A stretch of 13,355 bases of DNA from a virus. The DNA lies in UHGV virus genome UHGV-1987395, one strand, 5' to 3'. The notes under the pieces were generated by a model. It was not told the origin of the DNA. It made no database searches and saw only the letters and a program-made list of their open reading frames with translations. Of this stretch, positions 1-13,355 are shown in pieces. Each line of letters opens with the position of its first letter. The first letter of the stretch is position 1. The position numbers and the translations under genes are program-made.

Positions 1-1
1 A

Positions 2-346
2 GATGAGCACGGTTATCCGATTCTGACAAGTGATGAGATGAACGCCAAATACAAAGGGATTCAGGCAACATTTAAGGATCGGAAGAGCATTAAACTCTCT
101 GAATTGCGAGATGCATTTTACGGGCCGGAGGTGATGGATAAAATTAAAGGCACCGTTGAGGGTAGAATCTGGAAAGAAGATGATTATTGGCATTTAACAG
201 AACAGGCCCTTAAGGTGGCTCAACATGTAGCTAAAAGAGGTAAAACAATTATCATCGATTATATTAGTCATGGCTATGATGCCCCGAAAGAAAGATTGTG
301 GAACAACTGCAAGCTTGTAAAAGGCGAATTAACCATTACAAAATAA
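2..346 (+). CDS. hypothetical protein, 5'-truncated at window edge
   Basis: Frame is open from position 2 to the TAA at 344-346; the first in-window ATG is at 38. No family recognised. Confidence 0.4.
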   Translation, partial: DEHGYPILTSDEMNAKYKGIQATFKDRKSIKLSELRDAFYGPEVMDKIKGTVEGRIWKEDDYWHLTEQALKVAQHVAKRGKTIIIDYISHGYDAPKERLWNNCKLVKGELTITK

Positions 347-631: not shown

Positions 632-1117
632 ATGTTCAAATCTGATCTTTCTGATTCCCAATTTGAAAAACTGGTAGCACTGCAGAAATATCTCCCCAGT
701 GATGATCAACCAACACGACAGGCTAAACACTTATTAGTCGAGGGCTTTACCCCTGAATTCGTGGCGGAATATACAGGCGTTAAACTTGAGAAAGTCCAAA
801 AACTATATAATGAGTCCTGGAATCCACGGTGTCGAGTTCCCCTCAGTGTCTACAACGAAATAGATAGAGATAGAAATGTCTTCGAAGATCGCCGCCGCAA
901 ATCTCTTTTAATGTGGAATTGTGGGATGAATATTGAAGAGATAGCAAAAGAATTAAAAGTAACCTGCTTTCATGTCTGGGGCTTGTTGAGTGAAATCCTG
1001 CCACGTAAGGAGCTTAATCAACGTTTGCCTAAGCCCGGTAGTCGTGCTTATCGCGAATTTATATTCATCTACCGCCGCCATAGCAATAAAGTCCGGAAAG
1101 CAATGCAGCGCAAATAG
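632..1117 (+). CDS. putative HTH transcriptional activator (Mor/C-like or sigma region-4-like)
   Basis: GGAG 8 nt upstream of ATG; segment RRKSLLMWNCGMNIEEIAKELKVTCFHVWGLLSEI resembles, from memory, the C-terminal HTH of Mu Mor/C-family activators; basic C-terminus. Confidence 0.4.
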   Translation: MFKSDLSDSQFEKLVALQKYLPSDDQPTRQAKHLLVEGFTPEFVAEYTGVKLEKVQKLYNESWNPRCRVPLSVYNEIDRDRNVFEDRRRKSLLMWNCGMNIEEIAKELKVTCFHVWGLLSEILPRKELNQRLPKPGSRAYREFIFIYRRHSNKVRKAMQRK

Positions 1118-1205
1118 CTTATAGCCTTCACATATGCCGCAAGTTATTGATTCTGCCGTCCGGTAAATATGCCGGATGGCTCATATAAATTTTAAGGAAT
1201 TCCAA

Positions 1206-1649
1206 ATGTCTCAAATCGCTAAATTATTATCCCAGGTTATCAAAGCTATCGACGCTGAAGATTCAAAAGTTCGCCAGGATCTTTTAGATGGCAAGTTTAC
1301 CAACACCCTGGCATTTACCCGTGACAAAGAGCACTTCTTAAAACACAGACACCACGCTTTTGCTGAATGCAAGTCCGCTAATGGTGATGTTTTCTATGTC
1401 GATTTGGTGGTTATGGCATGTAGGCTGTGGATGATTCAGGACCTTATGCGCCAACACGGTGATGATCCTCTTATCAGCATGTGGAACAGCGCCCAGGATG
1501 GCTTTGTGATTGCTGCCTTATCCAAATCAATGATTGAGGCAGAAGGGGCAAGCCTTCAGAACATGGCAGATCTCTTTGAAATAAGCGTAGGAATGATGCA
1601 GACCATGCTCCAAGCTGTCAAACCTCTCAAACTGGTTAATCTTGATTAA
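1206..1649 (+). CDS. hypothetical protein
   Basis: ORF 1176..1649 in the track; ATG at 1206 has AAGGA 8 nt upstream, whereas ATG at 1176 has no clear SD. No family recognised. Confidence 0.45.
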   Translation: MSQIAKLLSQVIKAIDAEDSKVRQDLLDGKFTNTLAFTRDKEHFLKHRHHAFAECKSANGDVFYVDLVVMACRLWMIQDLMRQHGDDPLISMWNSAQDGFVIAALSKSMIEAEGASLQNMADLFEISVGMMQTMLQAVKPLKLVNLD

Positions 1650-1703
1650 GATATTGATAAATAAGCACTCCCCATTTTTTTGGGGGTGCATCAATGAGAG
1701 GAT

Positions 1704-2093
1704 ATGCCTATGAATATTGAAGAAATGATAGTTGAATTCGAAGAGGGTGATTTCCTGGAAGAAGGGGAGTTTAAATACTCCCGTTTTAAACAGGCGTTAT
1801 TTAGCAGCGATGATAAACCCCACGTTAGTGATCTTAATGATGATGATTTATGTCGCCTGGTGTGCACCCGCTTATATGAAGATGGAAAGTATACAGGCCA
1901 AAACTTTCCAAATCTCTATTTCAAAGCACAAACATTTGAGGAAGGGCAAAGAGTGAAAAACCTGGTCGATCAAATGCTGTCAGCCGGATATTTGCATAAA
2001 GAATTATTAAATCCTAAAGCTGAAAGCAAGCGCCATTATATTTTTGTGTGGTCTGTGGGGGATAAGTGCCCACTGAAGCGTAAAGGTAAATGA
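1704..2093 (+). CDS. hypothetical acidic protein; possible tail assembly chaperone
   Basis: GAGAGGA SD upstream of ATG; acidic N-terminus; lies two genes upstream of the tape measure gene, the usual position of chaperones. Call is positional only. Confidence 0.4.
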   Translation: MPMNIEEMIVEFEEGDFLEEGEFKYSRFKQALFSSDDKPHVSDLNDDDLCRLVCTRLYEDGKYTGQNFPNLYFKAQTFEEGQRVKNLVDQMLSAGYLHKELLNPKAESKRHYIFVWSVGDKCPLKRKGK

Positions 2094-2283: not shown

Positions 2284-4404
2284 ATGGCAATGAAGGAAGT
2301 AGCCAAGCTAACAAACGTTATTTACTGGGATTCTGATAAATCCTCCTGGCGAAAAGAAGTTAAACGGCTTGAGGATTATAAAAAATCCTGGAAGAAAGCT
2401 ACCGACGATATAGCTAAAGCGGATTTTAAATCGAATCAGGCTGTGCTCAGAACACAAAGAACACGCGCTAAGGTGGAAGAGCAGATTGCCAGAGCTCAGA
2501 GGAAACAACAGGAAGCACAGAAGAAACAACGTGCTCAGGCTGTCAGCCGTCTGACCGGGGGCAATAATCCGGAGCTCTCCTCTATGCGCAAGTTCTATCA
2601 GCAGCAAGCCAGAGAGGCCGCCAGACAACAAAAACTGTTAGATCGTAGTGTTGGAGATGTTCAGCACAGAAAAGCACGTGTAGGGGCCAACAGTGCACGA
2701 ATCAGCAGTATGTTTGATGGCTCCCTGGTTGCTCAGTTCCAAAGCAGAATCCAGAGAGTTAATGCTGATTATGCTAAAGGGGCTATCAACCTGCAGACCT
2801 ATAATCAGAGGATGGCCCGACTCAGATCTGAAATGAAGATGGCAACAGCTGAAGCCGGAAAATTCCAGAGCAGACTAGATAAACTGGCATCAGGTGCCAG
2901 CAAGGTGCATGACAACCTGGGCAAAATCAACTCCACGCTGGGCAAGATAGCCATTGGCCTTACTGCCGCTGGCTGGGGTGTTCAGCGTGCTGTTAGTGGT
3001 GCTATGGGTAGCCTTGCAGATCGCAACAGTGCCTACTTCGGTTTGATGGCACAGAACAAGGATGATAAAGCCAAGACTGATCAGCAGATGGCTTTTATCA
3101 AGAACACAGCCTACACCTATGGGATGGATGAGCGGGAGATGCAAGGGGGCTACATGCGCTTTGCTGCAGCTACCCCCACCATGAAGGAATCTGATAAGCA
3201 GGCTCTCTTTGAGGCTATGGCTATTAAAGGCCGCTCAGTGGGTGCTACTGGCGAGCAACAGAACAGGGCGCTTGTTGCGGTCCAACAAATGGCTTCAAAG
3301 GGAAAAGTTATGGCGGAAGAGCTGCGGGGCCAACTGTCAGAAGCCTTTGCAGGCTCACAACAGGACTTCCAACAGGCCGCTATTGATGCCGGAATCATCA
3401 AAAATACCCAGGAATTCGATAAAGCCCTTAAAGATGGCAAAATCACCCTGGACAAACTTCTTCCCTCTCTGGTGAAAATCTGGGGTGCAGCAAAAGAAAC
3501 TAAAGCTTTTGCTGAATCCATGAAACAGCCAGAAGTAGCAATGCAGCGCATGAAAAACAGCTTTAACGAGCTGGCGATTCAGTTTATGGGTGTTGTGGAT
3601 CCTGCAGATGGCGTTATTAGCTTATCTGAATCTCTAATCTCCATCTTCGAAGACCTCACCACTGATATGGACGGCAGCGGGAGCGCGGCAAAACAGTTTG
3701 GTGAGGCAGTCGGTGCTGCCATGCGGGAGATCATGTATTGGGTAGGCTTCGCTAAGGGATATATTGAGGTCAAGGCTAAAGAGTTCGGCATGACCGGATC
3801 AGAGGTTGGCGAGCTTATCGGGAAACTGGTAGTCGGCTTAGCTGGTCTGAAAGTTATTACCACACTGCTTTCCCCTCTGACCGGATTTGTTTCACTTGTC
3901 ACTCAGCTGATAGCCTTGTTAGGTAAAATCCCTGGTATGAGCAAGCTTCTGGCTTCTGCCTCAGGTGGAACGGCAACAGGAGCAGCGGTCATCAGTGCAG
4001 GATCTAACGCTGAAAGAAGCTTCATTGATGGCAAGACGCAGGAAATGAGTAAGGAGAACTCAAAACAGGGTGCTTTGTTTGAGCTGGGAAGATTTGTCAG
4101 CAATGCTGGCGCACTGTTCACACCTGGCGGCGATACTGGTCCTTTGTTCGATCAGGTCAGAGGCTGGTTTAATAAAGGGCCAACATTGACAGTAGACACT
4201 GGCATCAGACCAACACCGACGGGTGGCATGGCTATCCAGAATGGTGGATATCAACCAGTCCAAGTAAATGTAGCCCCACAAGGTGAGATTTCCGGCAAAT
4301 GGGAGATAACCATCGATGAGGGGGGAATTGCCAGGGTAATTCAGAAGGAAGTCAGCGATCAGTTGGATTGGAAAGCCACACAGGAATCTAACCAGCTTTT
4401 CTAA
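2284..4404 (+). CDS. phage tail tape measure protein
   Basis: 706 aa; N-terminal Q/R/K/A-rich predicted coiled coil; central region (NKDDKAKTDQQMAFIKNTAYTYGMDEREMQGGYMRFAAATPTMKESDKQALFEAMAIKGRSVGATGEQQNRALVAVQQMASKG...) resembles the conserved tape-measure core domain; Gly-rich hydrophobic segment near the C-terminus. Confidence 0.7.
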   Translation: MAMKEVAKLTNVIYWDSDKSSWRKEVKRLEDYKKSWKKATDDIAKADFKSNQAVLRTQRTRAKVEEQIARAQRKQQEAQKKQRAQAVSRLTGGNNPELSSMRKFYQQQAREAARQQKLLDRSVGDVQHRKARVGANSARISSMFDGSLVAQFQSRIQRVNADYAKGAINLQTYNQRMARLRSEMKMATAEAGKFQSRLDKLASGASKVHDNLGKINSTLGKIAIGLTAAGWGVQRAVSGAMGSLADRNSAYFGLMAQNKDDKAKTDQQMAFIKNTAYTYGMDEREMQGGYMRFAAATPTMKESDKQALFEAMAIKGRSVGATGEQQNRALVAVQQMASKGKVMAEELRGQLSEAFAGSQQDFQQAAIDAGIIKNTQEFDKALKDGKITLDKLLPSLVKIWGAAKETKAFAESMKQPEVAMQRMKNSFNELAIQFMGVVDPADGVISLSESLISIFEDLTTDMDGSGSAAKQFGEAVGAAMREIMYWVGFAKGYIEVKAKEFGMTGSEVGELIGKLVVGLAGLKVITTLLSPLTGFVSLVTQLIALLGKIPGMSKLLASASGGTATGAAVISAGSNAERSFIDGKTQEMSKENSKQGALFELGRFVSNAGALFTPGGDTGPLFDQVRGWFNKGPTLTVDTGIRPTPTGGMAIQNGGYQPVQVNVAPQGEISGKWEITIDEGGIARVIQKEVSDQLDWKATQESNQLF

Positions 4405-4957: not shown

Positions 4958-5416
4958 TCAACCTCTCCCCACATTTGACCAGTATTTGATTGCACCGATC
5001 AAATCATCATAGTGGCGCATTGCATCATTGAAGCCTTTATAGCTTGCCCATTGTGGGGAAACCTTGTTATTGCTGAATTGCCCACTAATCAGGATAGTCT
5101 CCAGAATGTCGGCGTATCGCTTGCCAATTCGCTTTCTGACGGCCTCAGAGCTTCCACCCTTTACGATTGCATTAATCAGGGCTTTTGTGTGTCTCAGGCT
5201 CTCATAGAGCATTGCAGCGTGGGCAGATTCCATAAAGGAGCGCTTAGGCAGATCACCCCACCCCTCAGAGTGGATAGCTGCCAGTGTGGCGTAATTCAGG
5301 CCGCTATAGTGCTTTCCGTCATCCCAGCCAACCGCTACACCTTCCATCTGTGAGAGCTCTTTATGCAGCTTATCCATCATGCGCTTGTCTATGGTGCAAC
5401 GGACTTTCGGACTCAT
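4958..5416 (-). CDS. putative virion morphogenesis / head-tail joining protein
   Basis: 152 aa; ATGA start-stop overlap with the upstream gene; segment LAAIHSEGWGDLPKRSFMESA resembles, from memory, the motif of HK97 gp10-like head-tail joining proteins. Weak. Confidence 0.35.
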   Translation of the reverse strand: MSPKVRCTIDKRMMDKLHKELSQMEGVAVGWDDGKHYSGLNYATLAAIHSEGWGDLPKRSFMESAHAAMLYESLRHTKALINAIVKGGSSEAVRKRIGKRYADILETILISGQFSNNKVSPQWASYKGFNDAMRHYDDLIGAIKYWSNVGRG

Positions 5417-6216
5417 TTGTTGATCTCCGTGATGTCATCGAGCAACATGTTGGCCTTATCAATCATCGTTTCGTGGAACTCATTCGACACAACAGACTTA
5501 TCACCTGCGGCAATCTTTCCCGCTGCCTCTCCCTGTGCATATTCCCCGCGATGCTTAGCCCTGGTAGATTTCGTAGCAGCGTTGCCAGCGTTGCTACCCT
5601 CTTTAGCACTGTTAACAGCACCCTTTTGCTGTGTTTTATTCACCTTCTTACTGTTAGTGAAAACTCCGGCATTTTCGACCATCTTCACCTTGAAGGTGCG
5701 GAATTCTTCAAAGGTGCAATCAATAGTGATGCAGTCACCAGAGGAAGAGCTACGCTTAACTTCACATTTCGTCATGATGAAGTTCTCAAGGAGTCCGGCA
5801 TCTTCACTCACCAGGCTGACCAGCTGGCGCTTGTCTCTCATTTCCATAAGTGCCTGAACAGCGGCAGCAGGGCGCATAGATTCACGGGGATTATCTGGAT
5901 CAGTGTTCCGGTCGATGTAGTTCTCTTTCCGGATGATATAAGGGGAAGAGGTAATAATACCCGTAAAGCTGACAGATTTATCTTTAATGACGGCATGGTC
6001 TGACATGGTGGTGCCATCCTCGACCGCATAGCTCGATTTCTCAACAGGGAACGAATAGCTGACATCAGAGATAGAGTCAAAGAAGATAGCCACATTATCG
6101 GTATAGTTGAAGCCATCCATTATATTTTTGTTTTGTGAATATCCCCCACACATAACAGTGAATGCAGGAGATCTCGACTCAGCTTGTTTTGCAGCTGTCA
6201 GAGCATCACTAGCCAT
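5413..6216 (-). CDS. hypothetical protein, probable virion protein by context
   Basis: ORF 5413..6225 in the track; ATG at 6216 has GGAGG 10 nt upstream, while the ATG at 6225 sits 1 nt from the SD. In the capsid operon; no family recognised. Confidence 0.45.
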   Translation of the reverse strand: MASDALTAAKQAESRSPAFTVMCGGYSQNKNIMDGFNYTDNVAIFFDSISDVSYSFPVEKSSYAVEDGTTMSDHAVIKDKSVSFTGIITSSPYIIRKENYIDRNTDPDNPRESMRPAAAVQALMEMRDKRQLVSLVSEDAGLLENFIMTKCEVKRSSSSGDCITIDCTFEEFRTFKVKMVENAGVFTNSKKVNKTQQKGAVNSAKEGSNAGNAATKSTRAKHRGEYAQGEAAGKIAAGDKSVVSNEFHETMIDKANMLLDDITEINK

Positions 6217-6321
6217 ATTAAACATGCCTCCAAAATGAATCTTTTCGTTGCCCTGCTTAAAATCTGCAGAAAATACAGGGCAGTTATTCGTTAGAATCGC
6301 TTATAGCTCTTCCCGAGAGCG

Positions 6322-6573
6322 TTATTTTGCAAAACGATTATGGGCATTCAGGGCTTTTTTGCGGTCCTGGGCTTGTTTGCGTGCAATAAAATGTTCGAAA
6401 GTCTCGGCCCAGGTGCATTTATTATATTCACGGTATTTATGCATAGCCTGGCGGCTAACGTCATAGCAGGCGGCAAATGTGGAGATACGCAGGAATTCCG
6501 GCAGATCCTCGTCATCGATATGGATAATATCAAAAGGCACGTCGTCACGGTCGCCGTATAAAACAATTTTCAT
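6322..6573 (-). CDS. hypothetical small protein (83 aa)
   Basis: ATG at 6573 with GAGGTG 6 nt upstream; the 6582 start in the track is GTG. Lies just downstream of the post-capsid terminator hairpin. Confidence 0.4.
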   Translation of the reverse strand: MKIVLYGDRDDVPFDIIHIDDEDLPEFLRISTFAACYDVSRQAMHKYREYNKCTWAETFEHFIARKQAQDRKKALNAHNRFAK

Positions 6574-6605
6574 AAAATACACCTCAAAAACTTAAGACGG
6601 GGATA

Positions 6606-6686: not shown

Positions 6687-7730
6687 TTATTTAGCCTTGG
6701 CTTTTGCCAGAGCAGCGGCGGCGGAGTTTTTAACACTCACTTTAACCACAACTTCGGGCATCATGTTCATGAAAGCATAAGAGGATTCAACGAAGATTTC
6801 TCGTTTGCCTCTGGACTCTTCCATATACATGAAAGCTTCACGTGCAGCGCCGTTTGCAAGCTTCAGGTTGCGAGCGCAAGGGCCGAAAAATTGAGTATAA
6901 ACGCCCACCATATCGCCTAACGCATGCGGCTGGAACTGTGGGACCAGATAAGCAGTATTCTCTGGCAGACTATCCATTTGCACCACACGCAGAGCTAAGC
7001 CCGGAATGCGGAAGGTCGGGAAGCCCGGCAGAATATCCTCAGGGAACATCAGACCTTTGTCGGTAATATTCTGATTGCCGAACAACAGCACTTTACGGAG
7101 CAGTTCATCAGTCTGAATAGCGGCGAACACCTCAGCACGGCAGAACAGGGTGAAACCACGCAGAGCGCGAACGACACCACGCTGTTTAACCTTGCTCAGT
7201 GCAACCAGGTCCTGCAGTTGTTTGAGAATATCTTGAGCTAGATCCATTTCAGAGGTGGACTGTTCCACGCCCAGCAGTTCGCACACATTCAGCTCTTTAC
7301 CCTTGGTGAGGATAATTTTGTTCTCAAAGAGAGCAAGCTGGCGTGCTTCTTCGTGGGTCTGGCGTAAGCCTTCGCCCAGTTGAATAACACGACGAGCGGT
7401 TACAGACTCTAAATTCTCTTCGGAATCTTTGCCAGGAACACGAATACCCTGCCAGTCAGAAGGATAAATAGCACTTGATGCGGCAGTGAACGCCATATCA
7501 CCCGTGCCCGTTTCACGCTCATCTGCGGTAATGGTCGCCATCTGTTCACCGTAGCGCGGATACTGACCGAAAGCGGTTTGTTTCACCTGGCGAACTTTGT
7601 CATATTCAAATTTAAAGGTATTGCACAGAGCAGTAGTGTTGAAGATATCCATTGCTGAAATAATCTGGTTATCCAGCGGGATGTCTTTAATCAAGCCACA
7701 CAGATCGCGGACTTCGAATTCTTTTTTCAT
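6687..7730 (-). CDS. phage major capsid protein (E-family-like)
   Basis: 347 aa from ATG 7730 with AAGGAGG 6 nt upstream (the 7736 start in the track is TTG); size and position directly after a decoration-like gene match the usual decoration + E-family capsid pairing; Ala/Lys-rich C-terminal tail. Confidence 0.6.
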   Translation of the reverse strand: MKKEFEVRDLCGLIKDIPLDNQIISAMDIFNTTALCNTFKFEYDKVRQVKQTAFGQYPRYGEQMATITADERETGTGDMAFTAASSAIYPSDWQGIRVPGKDSEENLESVTARRVIQLGEGLRQTHEEARQLALFENKIILTKGKELNVCELLGVEQSTSEMDLAQDILKQLQDLVALSKVKQRGVVRALRGFTLFCRAEVFAAIQTDELLRKVLLFGNQNITDKGLMFPEDILPGFPTFRIPGLALRVVQMDSLPENTAYLVPQFQPHALGDMVGVYTQFFGPCARNLKLANGAAREAFMYMEESRGKREIFVESSYAFMNMMPEVVVKVSVKNSAAAALAKAKAK

Positions 7731-7741
7731 CTCCAACCTCC

Positions 7742-8077
7742 TTATTGTGCAATTCGCAAATCGCCATTGCTGGCAGCGATAACAGCGGCTAAGCCTTCTT
7801 TATCCACGTAGGCCGGATTGATGTAGCAACCTTTGTTGGCAACAACGATAAAAGCATCACCAACCTCAGCACGTTCTACAACCAGCAGCGGAGTTTTACC
7901 GGTGTGCGTTGCTTTAACGAAGGTCTCAACCTCGCCAGCCTCAGTCACCACAACAACAGTGCCAGCCGGAATCTCAGCCTTAACTTTGTTTTTAACTTCA
8001 ACGTCGCGAATACTAAATTGCTCATCTGCGGCGTATGAAATGATGTGTCCGCGTGTGCGGATAGTCATATCTCTCAT
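7742..8077 (-). CDS. putative head decoration protein (DUF2190-like)
   Basis: 111 aa; AGGTGA 4 nt upstream of ATG; Val/Gly/Ala-rich beta-type sequence; sits directly upstream of the capsid gene, with its stop overlapping the capsid SD. Confidence 0.5.
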   Translation of the reverse strand: MRDMTIRTRGHIISYAADEQFSIRDVEVKNKVKAEIPAGTVVVVTEAGEVETFVKATHTGKTPLLVVERAEVGDAFIVVANKGCYINPAYVDKEGLAAVIAASNGDLRIAQ

Positions 8078-8567
8078 TTGATCACCTGCGATTTAAATTA
8101 ACTCCCCTCAAAGAGTTCCGGTATAACCTCTCAAACCACGACAGGCTCGGGCCGAAAAGTTATGCCGGAAATCTAAAGGGAAATTGATACAAGGAGAGGG
8201 AGATAGCCCCGCACCGTAGCCAAGCGGGGGCTATTCCACATGGGGAAACCGACAACAGTCGGATGATAGTTCACAGTATGGTTACGGTTACTAGAGAGCA
8301 CTATCACGAAAGGCACTCCCCCGAATCAGTTCAGGCTGCGGTCACATCAGCGGGGAAATACCTTTCGGGATAGCTACCCACACAGAAAACCCGCAAAAGA
8401 AAACTGTGTGGATAACTAGCCCAATAGGAGAATTAATCGACCACTCAACGATGATCAGGGTAGTGTTATTTATAAGGCGGCACCGCTACCTGGTCGCCTT
8501 TACTTTGGAGGAAAATACGGCAAATCAAGATCTTCTCAAATGATATTGATTCCATACTATACTGTAT

Positions 8568-8596
8568 ATTATATCAGTATTTACTCACATTGTCAA
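8568..8596 (-). promoter_or_regulatory. consensus sigma70 promoter reading leftward toward the capsid operon
   Basis: On the minus strand: TTGACA (plus 8596-8591), 17-nt spacer, TATAAT (plus 8573-8568). Perfect match at both hexamers with optimal spacing. Confidence 0.6.
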
Positions 8597-8750
8597 CACC
8601 TTGATTATATAAATTCTAATAATTAGCGTAGTAACGGTATTTTCAGACCTCTATCAATCCCATCAATACGTCACCCCCACCCTTTAGATGCATACATCCG
8701 ACCTACTTTGTAGGCTTGGCGTACTGCCAAGGTCGCAGCTATGCGACTCC

Positions 8751-8783
8751 TATCTATCACCACTTTATAAAGCTTGATAGATA
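8751..8783. promoter_or_regulatory. dyad-symmetric operator-like site
   Basis: TATCTATCA (8751-8759) and TGATAGATA (8775-8783) are perfect inverted repeats, concentric with an inner perfect palindrome CTTTATAAAG (8763-8772); overlaps a candidate -35 TTGATA at 8774-8779. Confidence 0.4.
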
Positions 8784-8926
8784 TCTTTTGATCAATATCA
8801 ATGTTTTCCAGAGATTTACCCGGCTATAGTTCGAATCAAGGAAGGGGAGCATTGATAGAGACACCCAAAGGGGTGACTGAAAGTCACCTGGCATAGCCAG
8901 TGAAAGCACCCAACCGAACAAACAAA

Positions 8927-8944
8927 TCAACTTCTCGCAAAAGG
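8927..8944 (+). promoter_or_regulatory. conserved 5'-UTR motif, copy 1
   Basis: TCAACTTCTCGCAAAAGG ends 8 nt before ATG 8953; near-identical to the copy at 9446-9464. Confidence 0.4.
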
Positions 8945-8952
8945 TGATAGTT

Positions 8953-9075
8953 ATGGGTATCAAGAACAGTGCCAGCGCATGGCAAAAGGCCAGGTTTCAT
9001 CACCCACACATGGTCAAGGCAATTGAGGTGGTTGGAGTTTTAGCCCTGATGTTAGCTCTGTGTGTGGAGGTGTGA
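8953..9075 (+). CDS. possible small membrane peptide (40 aa)
   Basis: AAGGTGA SD; translation MGIKNSASAWQKARFHHPHMVKAIEVVGVLALMLALCVEV has a C-terminal hydrophobic helix; preceded by the conserved TCAACTTCTCGCAAA motif. Below the track cut-off. Confidence 0.25.
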   Translation: MGIKNSASAWQKARFHHPHMVKAIEVVGVLALMLALCVEV

Positions 9076-9076
9076 G

Positions 9077-9157
9077 ATGGGTAAAGGAGGCAAAGAATTT
9101 TTAATAGGTCTGGCAGTCTTAGATTTTGTATTAATCATCATTGAGCGGAGTTTATGA
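9077..9157 (+). CDS. possible small membrane peptide (26 aa)
   Basis: GGAGGTG SD 4 nt upstream; translation MGKGGKEFLIGLAVLDFVLIIIERSL; its stop overlaps the next start as ATGA. Confidence 0.2.
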   Translation: MGKGGKEFLIGLAVLDFVLIIIERSL

Positions 9158-9414
9158 CGGGAACTAAAGATATTAAGAGACTGAGGGAAGAGCTGATAGC
9201 TGAAATTAAAGCTAAGGCAAAGCAAATGGAGATAGCCGCACAAATGGATGTAGCGGAACAGATGTACAAGATGGTTGAGGAGGGAACGCCACGACAGGTT
9301 ATAGCAAAAACCTTCGGTGTGGGGATCGCCACCGTGCACAGAAGGCTGAAAGCCTATGCCGACTACCACAATATCGAGAGAAAGGAGGATGGGAGATTTA
9401 AGAAGAATAAATAG
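9154..9414 (+). CDS. small DNA-binding protein with resolvase/invertase-type HTH
   Basis: 86 aa; charged helical N-terminus; C-terminal GTPRQVIAKTFGVGIATVHRRLK resembles, from memory, the Hin/Gin C-terminal HTH (GHPRQQLAIIFGIGVSTLYRY); no recombinase catalytic domain. Confidence 0.5.
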   Translation: MTGTKDIKRLREELIAEIKAKAKQMEIAAQMDVAEQMYKMVEEGTPRQVIAKTFGVGIATVHRRLKAYADYHNIERKEDGRFKKNK

Positions 9415-9445
9415 TGTGAACAGTCCAATAGGTTATTAACTAAAT

Positions 9446-9464
9446 TCAACTTCTCGCAAAGGGG
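9446..9464 (+). promoter_or_regulatory. conserved 5'-UTR motif, copy 2
   Basis: TCAACTTCTCGCAAAGGGG ends 7 nt before ATG 9472; same motif as 8927-8944. Confidence 0.4.
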
Positions 9465-9471
9465 TACCACT

Positions 9472-10059
9472 ATGAACATTAAAACTATCATTGCAGCCAT
9501 CACCATTGCCTTTAGTGCCAACACTGCAGCTATTGATGTTAATTTATTTCAGAAGATGACTTGCGAAGATAAATTAGTTGCCATGGATAAGGGGCTAGAA
9601 GCCACGCATAATGGGGAACAGTTTCATTTCTCCTTGAAGAATCTTATCTTGCCCCTGGATTCTGCCGCACAGGTATATGCAACATTGGGTAAATTTGAGA
9701 AGCCGGAAATTGACCTGCAGGGCGTGAGAGCGAAGATCACCAAAAGAAATGAAAGCATTTGTGATATAGCGGTTACGGCCCTTATGACAGATGATGAAAA
9801 AACGATTATAGCTACATGCAAAGATAGCAACGACAACGAACGATTCTTTAAGATCACCCACAACAGGCCCGTTTCTTTCTACTCTAATGCCACAATGGGC
9901 GCGGGTATGCAGTGGCTGAAGAGAGCTAAAGTAACTGAGGTTAATGCTGATGACGATTTATCCTATGAATACGGTTTTATTTCCAATTATATGGCGTGGC
10001 ACCTGAAAAAATGCGGCATCAATGGTCAGGCATACGACAATGGATTTTGGTTTTTCTAA
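9472..10059 (+). CDS. secreted/periplasmic protein of unknown function
   Basis: N-terminal signal peptide MNIKTIIAAITIAFSANTAA with an AxA-like cleavage site; AGGGG SD; followed by an intrinsic terminator at 10081-10106; ends in aromatic FWFF. Confidence 0.55.
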   Translation: MNIKTIIAAITIAFSANTAAIDVNLFQKMTCEDKLVAMDKGLEATHNGEQFHFSLKNLILPLDSAAQVYATLGKFEKPEIDLQGVRAKITKRNESICDIAVTALMTDDEKTIIATCKDSNDNERFFKITHNRPVSFYSNATMGAGMQWLKRAKVTEVNADDDLSYEYGFISNYMAWHLKKCGINGQAYDNGFWFF

Positions 10060-10080
10060 CCTATTAAGTTAATCCCACCT

Positions 10081-10106
10081 GGGGGCCATCACGGCCCCTT
10101 TTTATT
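10081..10106 (+). terminator. intrinsic terminator after the secreted-protein gene
   Basis: GGGGCC (10082-10087), loop ATCAC, GGCCCC (10093-10098), then TTTTTATTT. Confidence 0.65.
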
Positions 10107-10108
10107 TA

Positions 10109-10164
10109 TCCCCTATTTAACCCCTATTTAATGGGTATTTAATGCCTATTTATTGATTTAATGG
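10109..10164. repeat. five tandem copies of an 11-bp unit (consensus about CCCTATTTAA)
   Basis: TCCCCTATTTAA / CCCCTATTTAA / TGGGTATTTAA / TGCCTATTTAT / TGATTTAATGG in direct succession immediately after the terminator; 11-bp period is about one helical turn. Confidence 0.55.
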
Positions 10165-11566
10165 TTTTGGGCATTGTTGACAGTGTAAGAGAGAGGATGT
10201 AACCCTTTTTTGTAATACTAATAAAATCAATAGCTTAGCTCAATTGGCCTTTTCTCTGTTTTTGTCAAATTTAACATACCCTAAAAAACTGCAAAATCTG
10301 GCTGCAAGATTATCTGCAGCTGGATTTCTTACACCTCATTTTGTGGTATCACCCTGACTAGTTTGTGCATAAAATGAACAGTTTTTAACATTTCCTCTTC
10401 ACCTGGTAACCACACAAAAAGCTAAAAACGAGGCACAGATAATCTTAGAGGCCTGTTTTCTTGTTATCACTCTAGAAACGTCGTAGAGATGATTTTAATG
10501 AAAGATGACCTACCCTATTACACCCCTATTTTTTGTTATCACAATTGCATCCTGTGCGGTGTATGGCTATGTGCTGAAAGCGGTCTTATGTGTGGGTGTC
10601 AGAAATATCCATTAGCGGTATTAATACCCGTCGGAGATTCGTCTGAGGTGCCAGGCAGGCGCTCCCCCACCTCCCTTTTTTCTTCTAACAATTCTCAAAT
10701 ATCACACCACTGCCGACCACGTTACTACTCTGTTAATTCTTAAGCTTTGCTGTATGTTGTGCACATTATTTATTCAGGTGGCTGTACGTAAATTCTGTGC
10801 CCACTGATCATGATTTTTAAATCAGATTTTGTAGTTCGCTTTATTAGTGTAGATAAGATCTATTATGTTAAATGCAATTTTCCCAACCCTTCAAATCAAT
10901 GACTTACATGTAAGTATGCACTAACACCCCACACAGCACATTAGACGTATAGATGGCTATATCCCACATTTTTGATTGTTTTGTAGTCATTCCCCTGATC
11001 ATTTAACCAGTATAGTTTGTTCTCTGTAGACCACAAAATCGGAATTTACATCTGATTAACATAATCTGTTAGCATGATCACTATTACCCACACAACAATA
11101 ACCCCATGCAAGCCTCTTTAGGCAATTTATCGGCGTGTTGGTGTGAACAGTCTTTCATGTTCTTTATGAATTCATGACTGCAAGGAATGTATTCATTGTC
11201 CTGTGTGGGGGAAGGATGGACTGCCCCAGGGGCCATAGTTATGACACCCGGTCAACATAACTGTCGATAAAATCAACGGGTGTTGGTATGCATATTTCCC
11301 ACACATGAGAGAAAATCAAAGCAAAGAGAGAGGAGAGAGGTTTGCTAGTCAAAATAGGTCAATTGACGGCTAATACAGAGTAAAAAATCAGATGCAATCA
11401 CTCCCCCACCTGTTGGGATTTCCTACAACCCCTTTCAGTCATACTCAGGCACCACACCCCGGTAAATATTACCGCACTAACCTGTAAAGAATTTTCACAC
11501 CTGTGTGTTTATACAGTCATACTCTCCTGTTTTGCAGTCATTGCACCCATGATACACAGCCCCTAA

Positions 11567-11676
11567 CCTGTCAAAATATTTTACTACTTAGCCACTATAG
11601 CTATGCATACCTGTAAAATATTTTTACTACTACCTGTCAAAATACTTTACTACTACCTGTAAAAATATTTGACACT
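11567..11676. repeat. iteron-like 22-bp direct repeats (four copies, plus a degenerate copy at 11481-11500)
   Basis: CCTGTCAAAATATTTTACTACT (11567-11588), CCTGTAAAATATTTTTACTACT (11610-11631), CCTGTCAAAATACTTTACTACT (11633-11654), CCTGTAAAAATATTTGACACT (11656-11676); the last three are spaced 23 bp start to start. Confidence 0.6.
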
Positions 11677-11789
11677 AATAGATAAAGTAATAGACCACAC
11701 AAGATCCCCCCTAACCCCCCAGGGGGAATGGGGAGGGATCAGAGAGTGGGGAAGGTTTTCTAAGGGAAAAGCTTAACCCACAAATGAAA

Positions 11790-11818
11790 GCCTAAAGAGC
11801 ATTAGCGACTCTTTAGGC
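11790..11818. repeat. perfect 10-bp inverted repeat (hairpin or operator)
   Basis: GCCTAAAGAG (11790-11799), 9-nt spacer, CTCTTTAGGC (11809-11818); the half-site CTCTTTAGGCAAT recurs at 11114-11126. Confidence 0.5.
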
Positions 11819-12258
11819 AATATGTGTGTGGGTCACTCTGTGACTTTAGCTATACAGCTAAACCGACTACGTCGGCCTGTGTGTGGGGGTGACAATGTAT
11901 TCCATACATGACACGTCACCCAATTGTGTGTGGTCCGGCGAATGCGTCAGCATGAGGCCCACATGTGGACCGCTGCCGAAAGCTTGCCAGCGCCGGAAGG
12001 AGGCAGCAAAGAGTCTCCCGCGCGGGTGCACGCACACACATACAAAGGATACACTCATAAATCGAAAATAAGCCACCTAAATGGCCTTCTGGCTGCATTA
12101 ACTAGTGTGAGTAGTGCAATTGCATTACCTGACCTCTAAATCGCGTTAGAATCGATTTTAGAGCGCTTAAGGCAAAAAGTGCCCTCCCTTGTGGGCTTGC
12201 TTGTGTCTGCTGTGCAGGCTATGGCACCTATAGCACACCTAAATGATAATAATTCTCA

Positions 12259-12277
12259 TTGACAATTGGTTGACAAT
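12259..12277. promoter_or_regulatory. tandem TTGACAAT boxes (candidate operator or overlapping -35 elements)
   Basis: TTGACAAT at 12259-12266 and 12270-12277, 11 bp apart; a third copy at 12449-12456 forms the -35 of the downstream promoter. Confidence 0.4.
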
Positions 12278-12448
12278 GTGATAAGATTATAAATAGGGGG
12301 AGAAACAGATCCGGAGGTCAATGTGGAAATTACTGATGCAATAGCGATCATCAACCTGGCTGTACTGTGGTGCGGTGTTGCCTACATAGCCGGAGTAACT
12401 GCAATCGACAATCTTGAAGAAAAAATGATAGATAAATACAAAAAGATT

Positions 12449-12477
12449 GTTGACAATTTGACGAATGTCTGATAAAA
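12449..12477 (+). promoter_or_regulatory. sigma70-like promoter upstream of the 71-aa gene
   Basis: TTGACA (12449-12454), 17-nt spacer, TAAAAT (12472-12477). Confidence 0.5.
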
Positions 12478-12605
12478 TATAAAGCATAGGGTAATTCTCA
12501 TCATAGTGAATTTCCTTTAGTAGACTGGCGGGGGCTTGTCTTAAGTTCCCGTTTCTTTTTAATCATATATCGCACAGGTTAGTGAGCTAACAGGAGGCTT
12601 ATACT

Positions 12606-12821: not shown

Positions 12822-12835
12822 TTATGGGGGAATTA

Positions 12836-13355
12836 TGGCAAGTAATTACGGGGAAAATTTTACTCCCCTTTTTAAACGTTTCATCAAATACATTTTTAAA
12901 AATCCGATTGCAAAAACTACAACCAATAAAGAAAGATTTCACTTAAACTTGTTGGAAATGACAATTTACGGTGAGATGGCAAGTTTTAATGCTGCAGGTT
13001 GTGAAATATTTATCTCTGAACAGAGATTAGCAGACGATTATGATGTTTCAAGACCGACAGTTATTAACTCGATTAAATCTCTAGAAAATGCCGGGCTTAT
13101 TTCAATAGTTAAAAGTAAAGGCAAATCTAATCATTACAAACTGCTAATTACCCCTGATCAGCTTGGCAAGATGTGTGATGAGCAGGGTATTAAAACCTCC
13201 GACAGTGTGGGATCTAGTAAAGAGGCCCCCGATAATCAACAGGAAGCCCCAAAACAAGCCACACAGCAAGCTAAAAAGGCCGAGGTGGTGCAATTGCCTA
13301 CCCAACCTAAGAACGAGCGCAGAGAGCGCTTTAGAGACGCTGGCAAACGTGAGAA
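12836..13355 (+). CDS. winged-HTH DNA-binding protein, putative replication initiator or regulator (3'-truncated)
   Basis: Open from ATG 12836 to the window end; segment ISEQRLADDYDVSRPTVINSIKSLENAGLISIVKSKGKSNHYKLL is a classic winged-HTH; followed by a low-complexity Q/K/A/E-rich linker. Confidence 0.5.

What the first reader, a model, noticed from the sequence alone, without database searches (positions are those of the whole stretch)
2284..4404. Tape measure gene with no other tail genes in the window and convergent to capsid genes
A 706-aa tape measure protein would specify a tail of roughly 100 nm by the usual rule of about 0.15 nm per residue. Its operon ends at 4404 with no downstream tail-tip or baseplate genes; instead it converges on the capsid operon. 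The genes immediately upstream are a regulator and small unknowns rather than tube or sheath. Tail completion genes must lie upstream of the window, or this is a non-canonical use of a tape-measure-like protein.
Basis: partly seen in the sequence, partly recalled or inferred. Interest (0 to 1): 0.45.

Follow-up and report, generated by a model that had tools for sequence, protein, structure and literature searches.

The report
Plasmid phage satellite with own tail ruler
The window is a complete 13.4-kb circular E. coli plasmid that carries a few virus-particle genes, including a tail-length ruler, all related to rV5-like phages, so it is most likely an undescribed plasmid-borne parasite of those phages.

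Summary
The 706-aa ORF at 2284-4404 is a genuine tape measure protein (TMP). The window is not a fragment. It is a closed 13.4-kb circle, held as a 13.2-13.7 kb plasmid in 7 complete E. coli genomes, so no tail genes lie "upstream". Two tail-related genes sit in the convergent operon: a tube initiator (Dit-like, 5413-6225) and a tail-completion/neck-like protein (4958-5416), next to the capsid gene. Five proteins have their closest phage relatives in virulent ~137-kb rV5-like phages (Vequintavirus): initiator 50%, neck-like 45%, small HTH 32%, TMP 27%, capsid 24% identity. One conserved non-coding hairpin segment and a 48-nt insertion match only those phages. There is no terminase, portal, tube, sheath, lysis gene or integrase. 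Structural genes are under purifying selection. Three divergent lineages keep the same convergent TMP/capsid/initiator core, and where the TMP is complete it is 694-714 aa. Best reading: a plasmid-form phage satellite that builds its own small capsid and, like Vibrio PLEs (shown in 2026), chimeric tails about 10 nm shorter than the helper's. Packaging and helper dependence are inferred, not shown.

The parts
2284..4404 (+). Tape measure protein, 706 aa. It is collinear with the Vequintavirus TMP but 72 aa shorter.
   Evidence: Matches PF20155, TIGR02675 and PHROG 5255 and PDB 9cuy_W (E 3e-20). It is 26.5% identical to MaxTheCat bas57_0018. A full-length alignment shows a shared C-terminal motif. 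dN/dS is about 0.2.
5413..6225 (-). Tail tube initiator (Dit-like; RefSeq 'phage baseplate protein'), 270 aa
   Evidence: Matches PF21821 (E 7e-26) and the phiTE tube initiator 9cuy_K (E 2e-35). It is 50.5% identical to Vequintavirus 'tail tube initiator' bas57_0019. dN/dS is 0.02.
4958..5416 (-). 152-aa tail-completion/neck-like protein. Its exact role is not established.
   Evidence: Matches PHROG 222 (E 8e-29). It is 44.7% identical to bas57_0011, which lies between the head and sheath genes. Of 73 homologues, those on long contigs and the three carrying a phage name come from 140-153 kb phage genomes; many others sit on short unnamed fragments. An AF2 model reached pLDDT 90.6. It matches BFVD 'putative neck protein' and 'virion morphogenesis protein' but has no PDB analogue.
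6687..7736 (-). Major capsid protein, 349 aa, of the PF03864/HK97-like type
   Evidence: Matches PHROG 29 (E 4e-22). It is 24% identical to the MaxTheCat MCP (E 8e-9 against the 45-kb structural region). Relatives at 29-50% identity carry a precomputed PF03864 hit. dN/dS is 0.08.
7742..8077 (-). Conserved 111-aa ORF just upstream of the capsid gene, in the position held by the helper's decoration gene. Function unknown.
   Evidence: It is conserved in L009, L016 and L017 (42%, 48% and 23% identity). It shows no similarity to the Vequintavirus decoration protein. dN/dS is 0.09.
6322..6582 (-). Small HTH-like protein between the capsid and initiator genes. It is a homologue of Vequintavirus bas57_0132.
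   Evidence: It is 31.7% identical over 60 aa to bas57_0132 (E 2e-5 in a small database). The L016 homologue is 36% identical to the same phage gene.
2095..2280 (+). 61-aa HTH-like ORF immediately upstream of the TMP
   Evidence: It has only weak Pfam hits, UPF0122 (E 8e-4) and GntR, both below cut-off. The C-terminal half is conserved among variants.
632..2093 (+). Three ORFs of unknown function (632-1117, 1176-1649, 1704-2093) between Rep and the TMP. No tail assembly chaperone could be recognised among them.
   Evidence: There are no Pfam, PHROG, NCBIfam or PADLOC matches. dN/dS is 0.09-0.18. Only the 632-1117 ORF is conserved in L016.
12835..13355 (+). Replication initiator, N-terminal part. 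The gene continues at 1-346, which closes the circle.
   Evidence: The ORF is intact across the junction. It matches PHROG 270/186/678 (replication initiation, DnaD- or O-like) and HTH_36/HTH_11. It is contiguous in L002 at 99.8% identity.
1..346 (+). Replication initiator, C-terminal part
11566..11677 (.). Four 23-nt direct repeats (iterons), the likely replication origin
   Evidence: family D1
8568..8596 (-). Consensus sigma-70 promoter (12/12, extended -10) pointing into the capsid/tail operon
   Evidence: The promoter region is an inverted copy of the promoter regions at 12242-12489 (I1/I2).
12259..12478 (+). Two strong sigma-70-like promoters upstream of the Rep-to-TMP gene string
   Evidence: 10/12 and 11/12 matches. 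They share about 40-nt blocks with the capsid-operon promoter region.
11963..12027 (+). Non-coding hairpin segment shared with Vequintavirus phages only
   Evidence: It is 83% identical to MaxTheCat 131730-131794. It matched 119 phage records, those listed being rV5-like. Three of six stem pairs differ on both sides between element and phage with pairing kept.
8855..8906 (+). About 48-nt hairpin module shared with Vequintavirus. It is an insertion found only in this variant and L011.
   Evidence: It is 88-90% identical to 63 phage records, those listed being rV5-like. It is absent from six other element variants at exactly this point.
10060..12320 (.). ORF-poor 2.2-kb region that holds the iterons, the shared hairpin and most copies of the CCACACA motif
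   Evidence: PGAP annotates no CDS here in related plasmids. The motif occurs 20 times against 1.6 expected.
9154..10059 (+). HTH_7-type DNA-binding protein (9154-9414) and a highly variable 195-aa protein with a hydrophobic N-terminus (9472-10059). Both diverge from the capsid operon.

Best explanation
The window is a complete, self-replicating circular plasmid of E. coli (about 13.4 kb) that behaves as a phage satellite. It has its own initiator and iterons but cannot make a virion alone. It carries only replacements for a handful of virion parts of rV5-like virulent myophages (Vequintavirus): the capsid protein, the tail tube initiator, the tape measure protein and a tail-completion/neck-like protein.

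Proposed mechanism, by inference. When an rV5-like phage infects a plasmid-bearing cell, the plasmid's capsid protein assembles on helper portal and scaffold into a small head sized for about 13-16 kb. Its initiator and TMP seed tails on helper baseplates, using helper tube, sheath and fibres. This gives chimeric tails roughly 9-11 nm shorter than the helper's. The particles then carry the plasmid to new cells.

Shown here: circularity, gene content, homologies, purifying selection and conservation of the core across lineages. Inferred: helper dependence, packaging, small capsids and chimeric tails.
For: Closed circle and plasmid state.
- The Rep ORF wraps the window ends.
- Seven of 5,426 complete E. 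coli genomes carry the element. Six hold it as a 13.2-13.7 kb circular plasmid and one as a 39.6-kb plasmid record with three copies; it is never chromosomal.
- PLSDB types it as non-mobilizable.
- A metagenome contig closes on itself at 13,840 bp.
- The 120 TMP variants listed (97-100% identical) lie, with three exceptions on shorter contigs, on contigs of 13.2-14.1 kb.

Incomplete virion set.
- Only TMP, capsid, initiator and Rep exceed 200 aa.
- There is no terminase, portal, protease, tube, sheath, lysis gene or integrase.

Link to Vequintavirus.
- Identities to phage MaxTheCat: initiator 50.5%, neck-like 44.7%, TMP 26.5%, capsid 24%; small HTH protein 31.7%.
- Two non-coding segments match rV5-like phage DNA and nothing else listed among 50,697 phage records.
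- One of these is a recent 48-nt insertion, which points to the two DNAs having met in the same cells.
- The TMP is collinear with the helper-type TMP over its full length. It keeps the C-terminal motif that in phiTE docks in the hub and puncture device (PMC11972413).

Functional constraint.
- dN/dS is 0.02-0.2 for the structural genes.

Conserved architecture.
- L016 (13.3 kb) and L017 (15.9 kb) share only 29-57% protein identity with the window. Both keep small ORF, capsid, small ORF and Dit-like gene converging on a TMP of 694 and 712 aa.
- L009 (5.65 kb) shows the same order, with a TMP cut off by the contig end.

Precedent.
- V. cholerae PLEs encode TMP, TAC and BhuB at 20%, 20% and 41% identity to helper ICP1. 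They build chimeric tails 10 nm shorter (PMC12987554).
Against: - There is no direct evidence of packaging or transfer.
- Neither the TMP nor the capsid protein found a relative in IMG/VR viral contigs, though those scans reach only sequences that share the chosen peptide patterns.
- No small terminase, pac/cos site or tail assembly chaperone was recognised.
- The capsid operon has a consensus sigma-70 promoter rather than an obvious helper-dependent one.
- rV5-like phages are virulent, so co-occurrence with a helper cannot be read from host genomes.
- The 152-aa protein has no counterpart among the modelled chains of the phiTE virion.
- L017 lacks the 152-aa protein, so it is not part of the universal core.
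Confidence: 0.6

Rival explanations
1. The plasmid is an anti-phage interference element. Its diverged copies of helper structural proteins poison rV5-like virion assembly and protect the population. The plasmid itself is not packaged and spreads by other routes.
For: The proteins are close enough to helper parts to co-assemble. Satellites and PICIs are known to block helper tail assembly (PMC11364771; Rta in PMC12987554). No packaging function was recognised.
Against: A pure poison would not need a full-length capsid protein under strong purifying selection (dN/dS 0.08). It would not need a TMP held at 694-714 aa across lineages with 30% identity, or a replicon size held at 13.2-14.1 kb in nearly all listed contigs. 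No PADLOC family matched. The plasmid is typed non-mobilizable, so another transfer route would still be needed.
Confidence: 0.15
2. It is a satellite as described, but its helper is not the known virulent E. coli Vequintavirus group. The helper would be an unsampled relative, such as a temperate or plasmid-borne Vequintavirinae-like phage.
For: Capsid and TMP identities to Vequintavirus are low (24-27%). The sister lineages L016 and L017 are about equally distant from MaxTheCat. Relatives of the capsid protein occur on small contigs in Klebsiella and Plesiomonas and in chromosomes of Serratia, Klebsiella and Sodalis.
Against: Among 50,697 phage records the best initiator matches are Vequintavirus, at about 50%. 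The only non-coding DNA matches (83-90%) are to rV5-like phages of E. coli. PLE proteins are similarly distant from their proven helper (20-41%; PMC12987554).
Confidence: 0.15
3. It is a decaying remnant of a phage or phage-plasmid, a cryptic plasmid whose structural genes no longer function.
For: Gene content is fragmentary, and 17% of the replicon has no annotated gene.
Against: All structural ORFs are intact in every variant examined. dN/dS is 0.02-0.2. The same core and layout persist in lineages with only 29-57% protein identity. Nearly all of the 120 listed TMP variants sit on contigs of constant size.
Confidence: 0.04
4. It is an autonomous miniature tailed virus.
For: It has capsid, tail-core and replication genes.
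Against: No ORF is long enough to be a portal or large terminase. There is no tube, sheath, fibre or lysis gene.
Confidence: 0.02

Closest known systems
[quoted passage not shown]
   Same: Both relate to a large virulent myophage (~126 kb for ICP1, ~137 kb here). Both encode a TMP only 20-27% identical to the helper's and shorter than it (95 aa for PLE, 72 aa here). Both also encode a hub-proximal tail protein that is much closer to the helper's (41% for PLE, 50% here). In PLE these build chimeric tails 10 nm shorter (PMC12987554).
   Different: PLE is integrated and has an integrase. It uses the helper's coat protein remodelled by TcaP, and it has a recognised TAC. This element is a plasmid with no integrase, has its own capsid protein, has no recognisable TAC, and lives in E. 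coli. Sequence homology between the PLE proteins and these proteins was not tested.
PISP and cf-PISP satellite-plasmids of Vibrio (10.1101/2025.10.10.681744; PMC13230959)
   Same: They are small circular extrachromosomal elements (11-16 kb) with phage head genes and no integrase. PISP has a PF03864-type capsid protein.
   Different: Those elements carry parA/repA, a protease and a small terminase (PISP), or a full head and packaging module (cf-PISP). They are described as lacking tail genes, and they were reported only in Vibrio. This element has a TMP, a tube initiator and a neck-like gene, but no recognisable protease, terminase or parA.
cf-PICI (capsid-forming PICIs)
   Same: The satellite makes its own capsid and takes the rest of the tail from a helper. 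Some cf-PICIs carry a predicted tmp (PMC12987554, Extended Data Fig. 10).
   Different: cf-PICIs are integrated and encode portal, protease, adaptors and both terminase subunits. None of these is present here.
Tail module of Vequintavirinae (rV5, BASEL Bas57 MaxTheCat, phiTE)
   Same: TMP, tube initiator, the 152-aa head-tail-module protein, the capsid protein and a small HTH protein are homologues of this module.
   Different: In the phage these genes sit in one co-oriented block of about 40 kb with sheath, tube, hub and fibres. Here only these genes remain, split into two convergent units on a 13-kb plasmid.
EPIPs of Mycolicibacterium (PMC12822802)
   Same: They are satellites that encode a capsid protein and a TMP. 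Their particles have smaller heads and altered tail length.
   Different: They are integrative (serine integrase), have siphovirus helpers, live in an actinobacterial host and carry a small terminase.

Membership tests
Tape measure protein (Pfam PF20155 TMP_3 / TIGR02675) | Profile match above the curated cut-off | tested here: met
   PF20155 scored 52.9 bits against a cut-off of 41. TIGR02675 scored 34 against 21.35. PHROG 5255 gave E 6.7e-164.
Tape measure protein (Pfam PF20155 TMP_3 / TIGR02675) | Homology to a TMP seen inside a solved tail | tested here: met
   It matches the phiTE TMP chain 9cuy_W at E 3.2e-20 over aa 111-655. It is collinear with the MaxTheCat TMP, including the C-terminal motif.
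Tape measure protein (Pfam PF20155 TMP_3 / TIGR02675) | Canonical context: downstream of tube and chaperone genes, upstream of hub genes, all co-oriented | tested here: not met
   The replicon has no tube, sheath or recognisable chaperone gene. The initiator lies on the opposite strand.
Tape measure protein (Pfam PF20155 TMP_3 / TIGR02675) | Protein length sets tail length | not testable with these tools
   Indirect evidence only. Length is held at 694-714 aa across lineages with 30-33% identity.
Phage satellite (general) | Lacks the full set of virion, packaging and lysis genes | tested here: met
Phage satellite (general) | Carries genes that redirect or replace helper assembly parts | tested here: met
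   Capsid, TMP, initiator and neck-like homologues of Vequintavirus proteins are present.
Phage satellite (general) | Is packaged and transferred only with a helper phage | not testable with these tools
   There are no experimental data. The family was not found in IMG/VR by pattern scans.
PLE | Chromosomal integration with an integrase, in Vibrio cholerae with helper ICP1 | tested here: not met
   There is no integrase. The element occurs only as a plasmid in E. coli.
PLE | A satellite TMP plus a hub-proximal protein replace the helper's in chimeric tails | tested here: inconclusive
   The genes are present with the same pattern of identity to the putative helper. Incorporation into tails was not tested.
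cf-PICI | Own portal, protease, adaptor and terminase genes plus an integrase | tested here: not met
   None was detected.
PISP / cf-PISP satellite-plasmids | Small extrachromosomal circle with a phage capsid gene and no integrase | tested here: met
   Relatives of the capsid protein carry a PF03864 hit.
PISP / cf-PISP satellite-plasmids | parA/repA maintenance genes, protease and small terminase, and no tail genes | tested here: not met
   No parA, protease or terminase match was found. Tail genes are present.
Phage-plasmid (P1, N15 or SSU5 type) | A complete phage genome maintained as a plasmid | tested here: not met
   The element is 13.4 kb with about 16 genes. It gave no megablast match to any phage record.

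The most novel reading that the evidence does not exclude
A previously undescribed, multi-lineage family of Enterobacterales plasmid satellites parasitises virulent rV5-like (Vequintavirinae) phages. It does so by replacing both size-determining parts of the virion, the capsid protein and the tail ruler, together with the two proteins that cap the ends of the tail tube. The result would be a miniature virion for a 13-16 kb plasmid. It would be the first satellite of this phage group, which is widely used in therapy and biocontrol cocktails. It would also be the first plasmid-borne satellite known to make chimeric tails.
Probability: 0.45. Interest if true: 0.8.

Novelty: new variant of a known kind. 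Interest (0 to 1): 0.66.

Why it matters
Until 2025-26 there were no known satellites that are plasmids of tailed-phage hosts, and none known to carry their own tape measure. Each has so far been described in one or two systems: Vibrio PISPs for the first, and PLE and EPIPs for the second.

This element combines both traits in E. coli and points to rV5-like phages as helpers. Those phages are common in therapeutic and food-safety cocktails. If the reading is correct, the plasmid could lower their yield or spread by riding on them.

The family also offers a tractable E. coli system for asking why a satellite would bother to change tail length. Finally, it would explain a set of 'non-mobilizable' small plasmids seen in many E. 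coli assemblies.

Tried and rejected
- Megablast of the whole window against 50,697 phage records found nothing.
- Pattern scans for relatives of the TMP or capsid protein found nothing in IMG/VR or in GTDB species representatives. The JGI metagenome scan returned only three E. coli-type contigs.
- The first AF2 model of the 152-aa protein, built from 4 sequences, was unusable (pLDDT 46). It was repeated with 50 sequences.
- No tail assembly chaperone was found. The ORFs upstream of the TMP match no family, are not conserved between lineages, and show no similarity to the Vequintavirus genes in the equivalent position.
- The 111-aa ORF upstream of the capsid gene shows no similarity to the helper's decoration protein.
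- tRNA and Rfam scans of the ORF-poor region found nothing significant. PADLOC found no defence system.
- Literature searches by protein accession, for 'Vequintavirus + satellite' and for 'satellite-plasmid' found no description of this element.
- An inversion boundary in a larger prophage is rejected, because the sequence is a closed circle.
Full report
**Observation.** The ORF at 2284-4404 (+) is real and encodes 706 aa.
- It passes the curated cut-offs of Pfam TMP_3 and TIGR02675, and matches PHROG 5255 'tail length tape measure protein' at E 6.7e-164.
- It matches the tape measure chain of the solved phiTE virion, 9cuy_W, at E 3.2e-20.
- It converges on a minus-strand operon that contains a major capsid protein (6687-7736; PHROG 29, E 3.7e-22).
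- The statement that the window has no other tail genes is wrong. The same convergent operon encodes a Dit-like tube initiator (5413-6225; PF21821 E 7.4e-26; phiTE tube initiator 9cuy_K E 2e-35). It also encodes a 152-aa protein that matches PHROG 222 'tail completion or Neck1' (4958-5416; E 7.9e-29).

**The window is a whole replicon.**
- Joining the window's end to its start gives an intact 288-aa gene (12835-13355 + 1-346). It matches phage replication-initiator families and winged-helix Pfam domains. The junction is contiguous in a related plasmid at 99.8% identity.
- Megablast finds the sequence in 7 of 5,426 complete E. coli genomes. It is always on plasmids and never on chromosomes. The records are 13.2-13.7 kb circles, apart from one 39.6-kb record that holds three copies.
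- PLSDB types these plasmids as non-mobilizable. A metagenome contig closes on itself at 13,840 bp.
- The 120 best TMP matches are 97-100% identical. With three exceptions on shorter contigs, they lie on contigs of 13.2-14.1 kb.
- So there is no 'upstream of position 1', and no tube or sheath gene exists in the element.
- Four 23-nt iterons lie at 11566-11677.

**Gene content.**
- Apart from TMP, capsid, initiator and Rep, no ORF exceeds 200 aa.
- Nothing matches terminase, portal, protease, scaffold, tube, sheath, fibre, lysis, integrase, partition or known defence families.
- The element therefore cannot form a virion alone.

**Source of the structural genes.**
- tblastn against phage genomes puts the initiator closest to Vequintavirus (rV5-like, virulent, about 131-144 kb). 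Identity is about 50%, and several BASEL records annotate the gene as 'tail tube initiator'.
- Against the full genome of phage MaxTheCat, the initiator is 50.5% identical to bas57_0019. The 152-aa protein is 44.7% identical to bas57_0011, a gene between the head and sheath genes. The TMP is 26.5% identical to the 778-aa bas57_0018, and the capsid protein 24% identical to bas57_0008.
- The small HTH-like protein at 6322-6582 is 31.7% identical to bas57_0132.
- A global alignment shows the two TMPs are collinear from end to end. The plasmid protein lacks about 72 aa, mostly in the N-terminal half. It keeps a C-terminal motif (GK..I.I.EG...L.W).
- In phiTE, a member of the same subfamily, the TMP C-terminus is buried in the hub and intercalates with the puncture device. 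The tube initiator forms the first ring above the hub (PMC11972413).

**The 152-aa protein.**
- A profile search found 73 homologues. Those on long contigs, and the three that carry a phage name, come from 140-153 kb phage genomes; many others lie on short unnamed fragments.
- An AF2 model built on 50 sequences is confident (pLDDT 90.6).
- It has no analogue in the PDB.
- It does match predicted viral structures named 'putative neck protein' and 'virion morphogenesis protein'.
- I therefore keep the tail-completion/neck label as probable rather than established.

**Non-coding links to the same phages.**
- blastn of the window against MaxTheCat found two short non-coding matches.
- Window 11963-12027 matches 119 phage records at 80-90% identity. 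The listed hits are rV5-like genomes, mostly in unannotated DNA.
- The stem of that hairpin differs from the phage's at three of six pairs, on both sides, with pairing kept. A second group of plasmid variants replaces the hairpin with a different one between conserved flanks.
- Window 8855-8906 matches 63 phage records at 80-95% identity, again rV5-like where listed. It is a roughly 48-nt insertion present only in this variant and L011, and absent from six others at exactly that point. This indicates recent DNA exchange between the plasmid and these phages.
- The heptamer CCACACA occurs 20 times in the window against 1.6 expected, mostly in ORF-poor DNA. In MaxTheCat it clusters in the same two regions that share these segments.

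**Constraint and conservation.**
- Among six variants, dN/dS is 0.02 for the initiator, 0.05 for the 152-aa protein, 0.08 for the capsid protein and about 0.2 for the TMP.
- The Rep gene differs strongly between variants, ranging from 85% and 70% nucleotide identity down to only short fragments aligned.
- A search of 1.84 billion representative proteins found only 29 relatives of the capsid protein.
- Their clusters include further sets of small contigs: 13.3 kb; 13.8-15.9 kb in E. coli and Shigella sonnei; 13.7 kb in Klebsiella; 11-12 kb in Plesiomonas. Other clusters are chromosomal, in Klebsiella, Enterobacter, Serratia and Sodalis.
- Two complete relatives (L016, 13,268 bp; L017, 15,926 bp) and one fragment (L009) share only 29-57% protein identity with the window. 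All keep the same layout: small ORF, capsid, small ORF and Dit-like gene, followed by the 152-aa gene in L016 and L009 only, converging on a TMP. The TMP is 694 aa in L016, 712 aa in L017 and incomplete in L009.
- Together with the 699-714 aa variants of the E. coli group, the TMP length is held far more tightly than its sequence. It always stays below the helper-type 778-811 aa.

**Mechanism.**
- Seed and colleagues showed in 2026 that V. cholerae PLEs, satellites of the virulent myophage ICP1, encode TMP, chaperone and a hub protein. These are 20%, 20% and 41% identical to ICP1's.
- PLE builds them into chimeric tails 10 nm shorter, and loses 96-99.9% of its transduction without its TMP (PMC12987554).
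- The plasmid shows the same pattern: a distant, shorter TMP and a much closer hub-proximal protein.
- I infer that its TMP and initiator seed tails on helper baseplates, using helper tube and sheath. Scaling from phiTE (811 aa for 102 nm) gives about 89 nm, against about 98 nm for the helper.
- The capsid protein implies a dedicated small head. Scaling the T=13, ~137-kb capsid by T^1.5 gives about 15 kb for T=3 and about 23 kb for T=4. That range brackets the family's 13-16 kb. This is my own rough estimate.
- The capsid operon has a perfect sigma-70 promoter (8596 to 8568). Its surroundings are inverted copies of the promoter regions of the Rep-to-TMP string. It diverges from an operon that encodes an HTH protein (9154-9414). 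This layout suggests one repressor controlling both units, but that is inference.

**What is not shown.** Packaging, helper dependence, small capsids and chimeric tails are all inferred. No terminase small subunit, pac site or chaperone was found. The family was not seen in IMG/VR by the pattern scans.

**Rivals.**
- An interference-only plasmid fits the size and length constraints less well.
- A satellite of an unsampled relative of Vequintavirus remains possible.
- A decaying remnant is contradicted by the selection and conservation data.
- An autonomous mini-virus is ruled out by gene content.

**Novelty.**
- Plasmid satellites of tailed phages were first described in Vibrio in 2025-26 (10.1101/2025.10.10.681744; PMC13230959). 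Those elements lack tail genes.
- Satellite TMPs were first shown in PLE and noted in EPIPs and some cf-PICIs (PMC12987554; PMC12822802).
- I found no description of this E. coli family or of any Vequintavirinae satellite.
- It is best filed as a new variant, a new family, of a known kind.

Noticed in passing
window 8378-9067 and 10410-11933 (20 sites in all): The heptamer CCACACA/TGTGTGG occurs 20 times against 1.6 expected, mostly in ORF-poor DNA. Some copies form inverted pairs, for example 8378/8411. In phage MaxTheCat it clusters at 90.16-93.25 kb and 130.8-131.8 kb, the same regions that share DNA with the plasmid. Its function is unknown.
   Followed up: partly
window 11963-12027; L008 41730-41794 (MaxTheCat 131730-131794): A conserved non-coding hairpin lies between the flanks ATGTGGA and GAGTCTCCCGCGCG. 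It is shared with rV5-like phages and with L016. It shows compensatory stem changes and has no Rfam match. It could be a structured RNA or a DNA recognition site.
   Followed up: partly
window 8855-8906: A hairpin module of about 48 nt is inserted in this variant and in L011 only. It is 88-90% identical to copies in rV5-like phages, and MaxTheCat has two copies in opposite orientation. It looks like a small mobile insertion moving between phage and plasmid.
   Followed up: partly
window 12835-13355 + 1-346, compared with L004, L005 and L006: The replication-initiator gene differs greatly between otherwise 90-97% identical plasmids: 85% and 70% nucleotide identity, or only short fragments aligned. 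One version is annotated as MarR family. This suggests exchange of the replicon module.
   Followed up: partly
window 9472-10059: A 195-aa protein with a hydrophobic, signal-peptide-like N-terminus is the most divergent gene among variants (74-78% nucleotide identity, dN/dS 0.26). It has no family match. It may be an accessory or exclusion function.
   Followed up: no
window 8953-9075, 9077-9157 and 12324-12473: There are three short ORFs (40, 26 and 49 aa) with hydrophobic stretches. The first two are unannotated and abut the HTH gene at 9154. A shared motif, TCAACTTCTCGCAAA, lies just upstream of 8953 and of 9472.
   Followed up: no
window 8557-8624 versus 12242-12489: The promoter region of the capsid operon and the two promoter regions upstream of the Rep operon are inverted copies of one another (about 40 nt, 70-79% identity). 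This suggests a common operator.
   Followed up: no
NZ_CP043822.1 (E. coli RM10740 plasmid, 39,610 bp): One complete-genome record holds three tandem copies of the element. This may be a real multimer or a long-read assembly artefact.
   Followed up: no
clusters listed; L016, L017: Capsid-protein relatives define further sets of small contigs: 13.7 kb in Klebsiella, 11-12 kb in Plesiomonas and 14-16 kb in E. coli and Shigella sonnei. There are also chromosomal copies in Serratia, Klebsiella, Enterobacter and Sodalis. L016 carries a resolvase, and L017 a T5orf172/DUF723 protein.
   Followed up: partly
phage hits MG0656xx: Many GenBank records named 'Campylobacter phage' behave as rV5-like E. 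coli phage genomes in every search. Their host labels look doubtful.
   Followed up: no
L008 51-2584 (MaxTheCat 90,051-92,584): Vequintavirus has a 2.5-kb stretch with no annotated gene where two transcription units converge. It is rich in CCACACA and in CTCTTCAGG repeats and has no Rfam match.
   Followed up: partly
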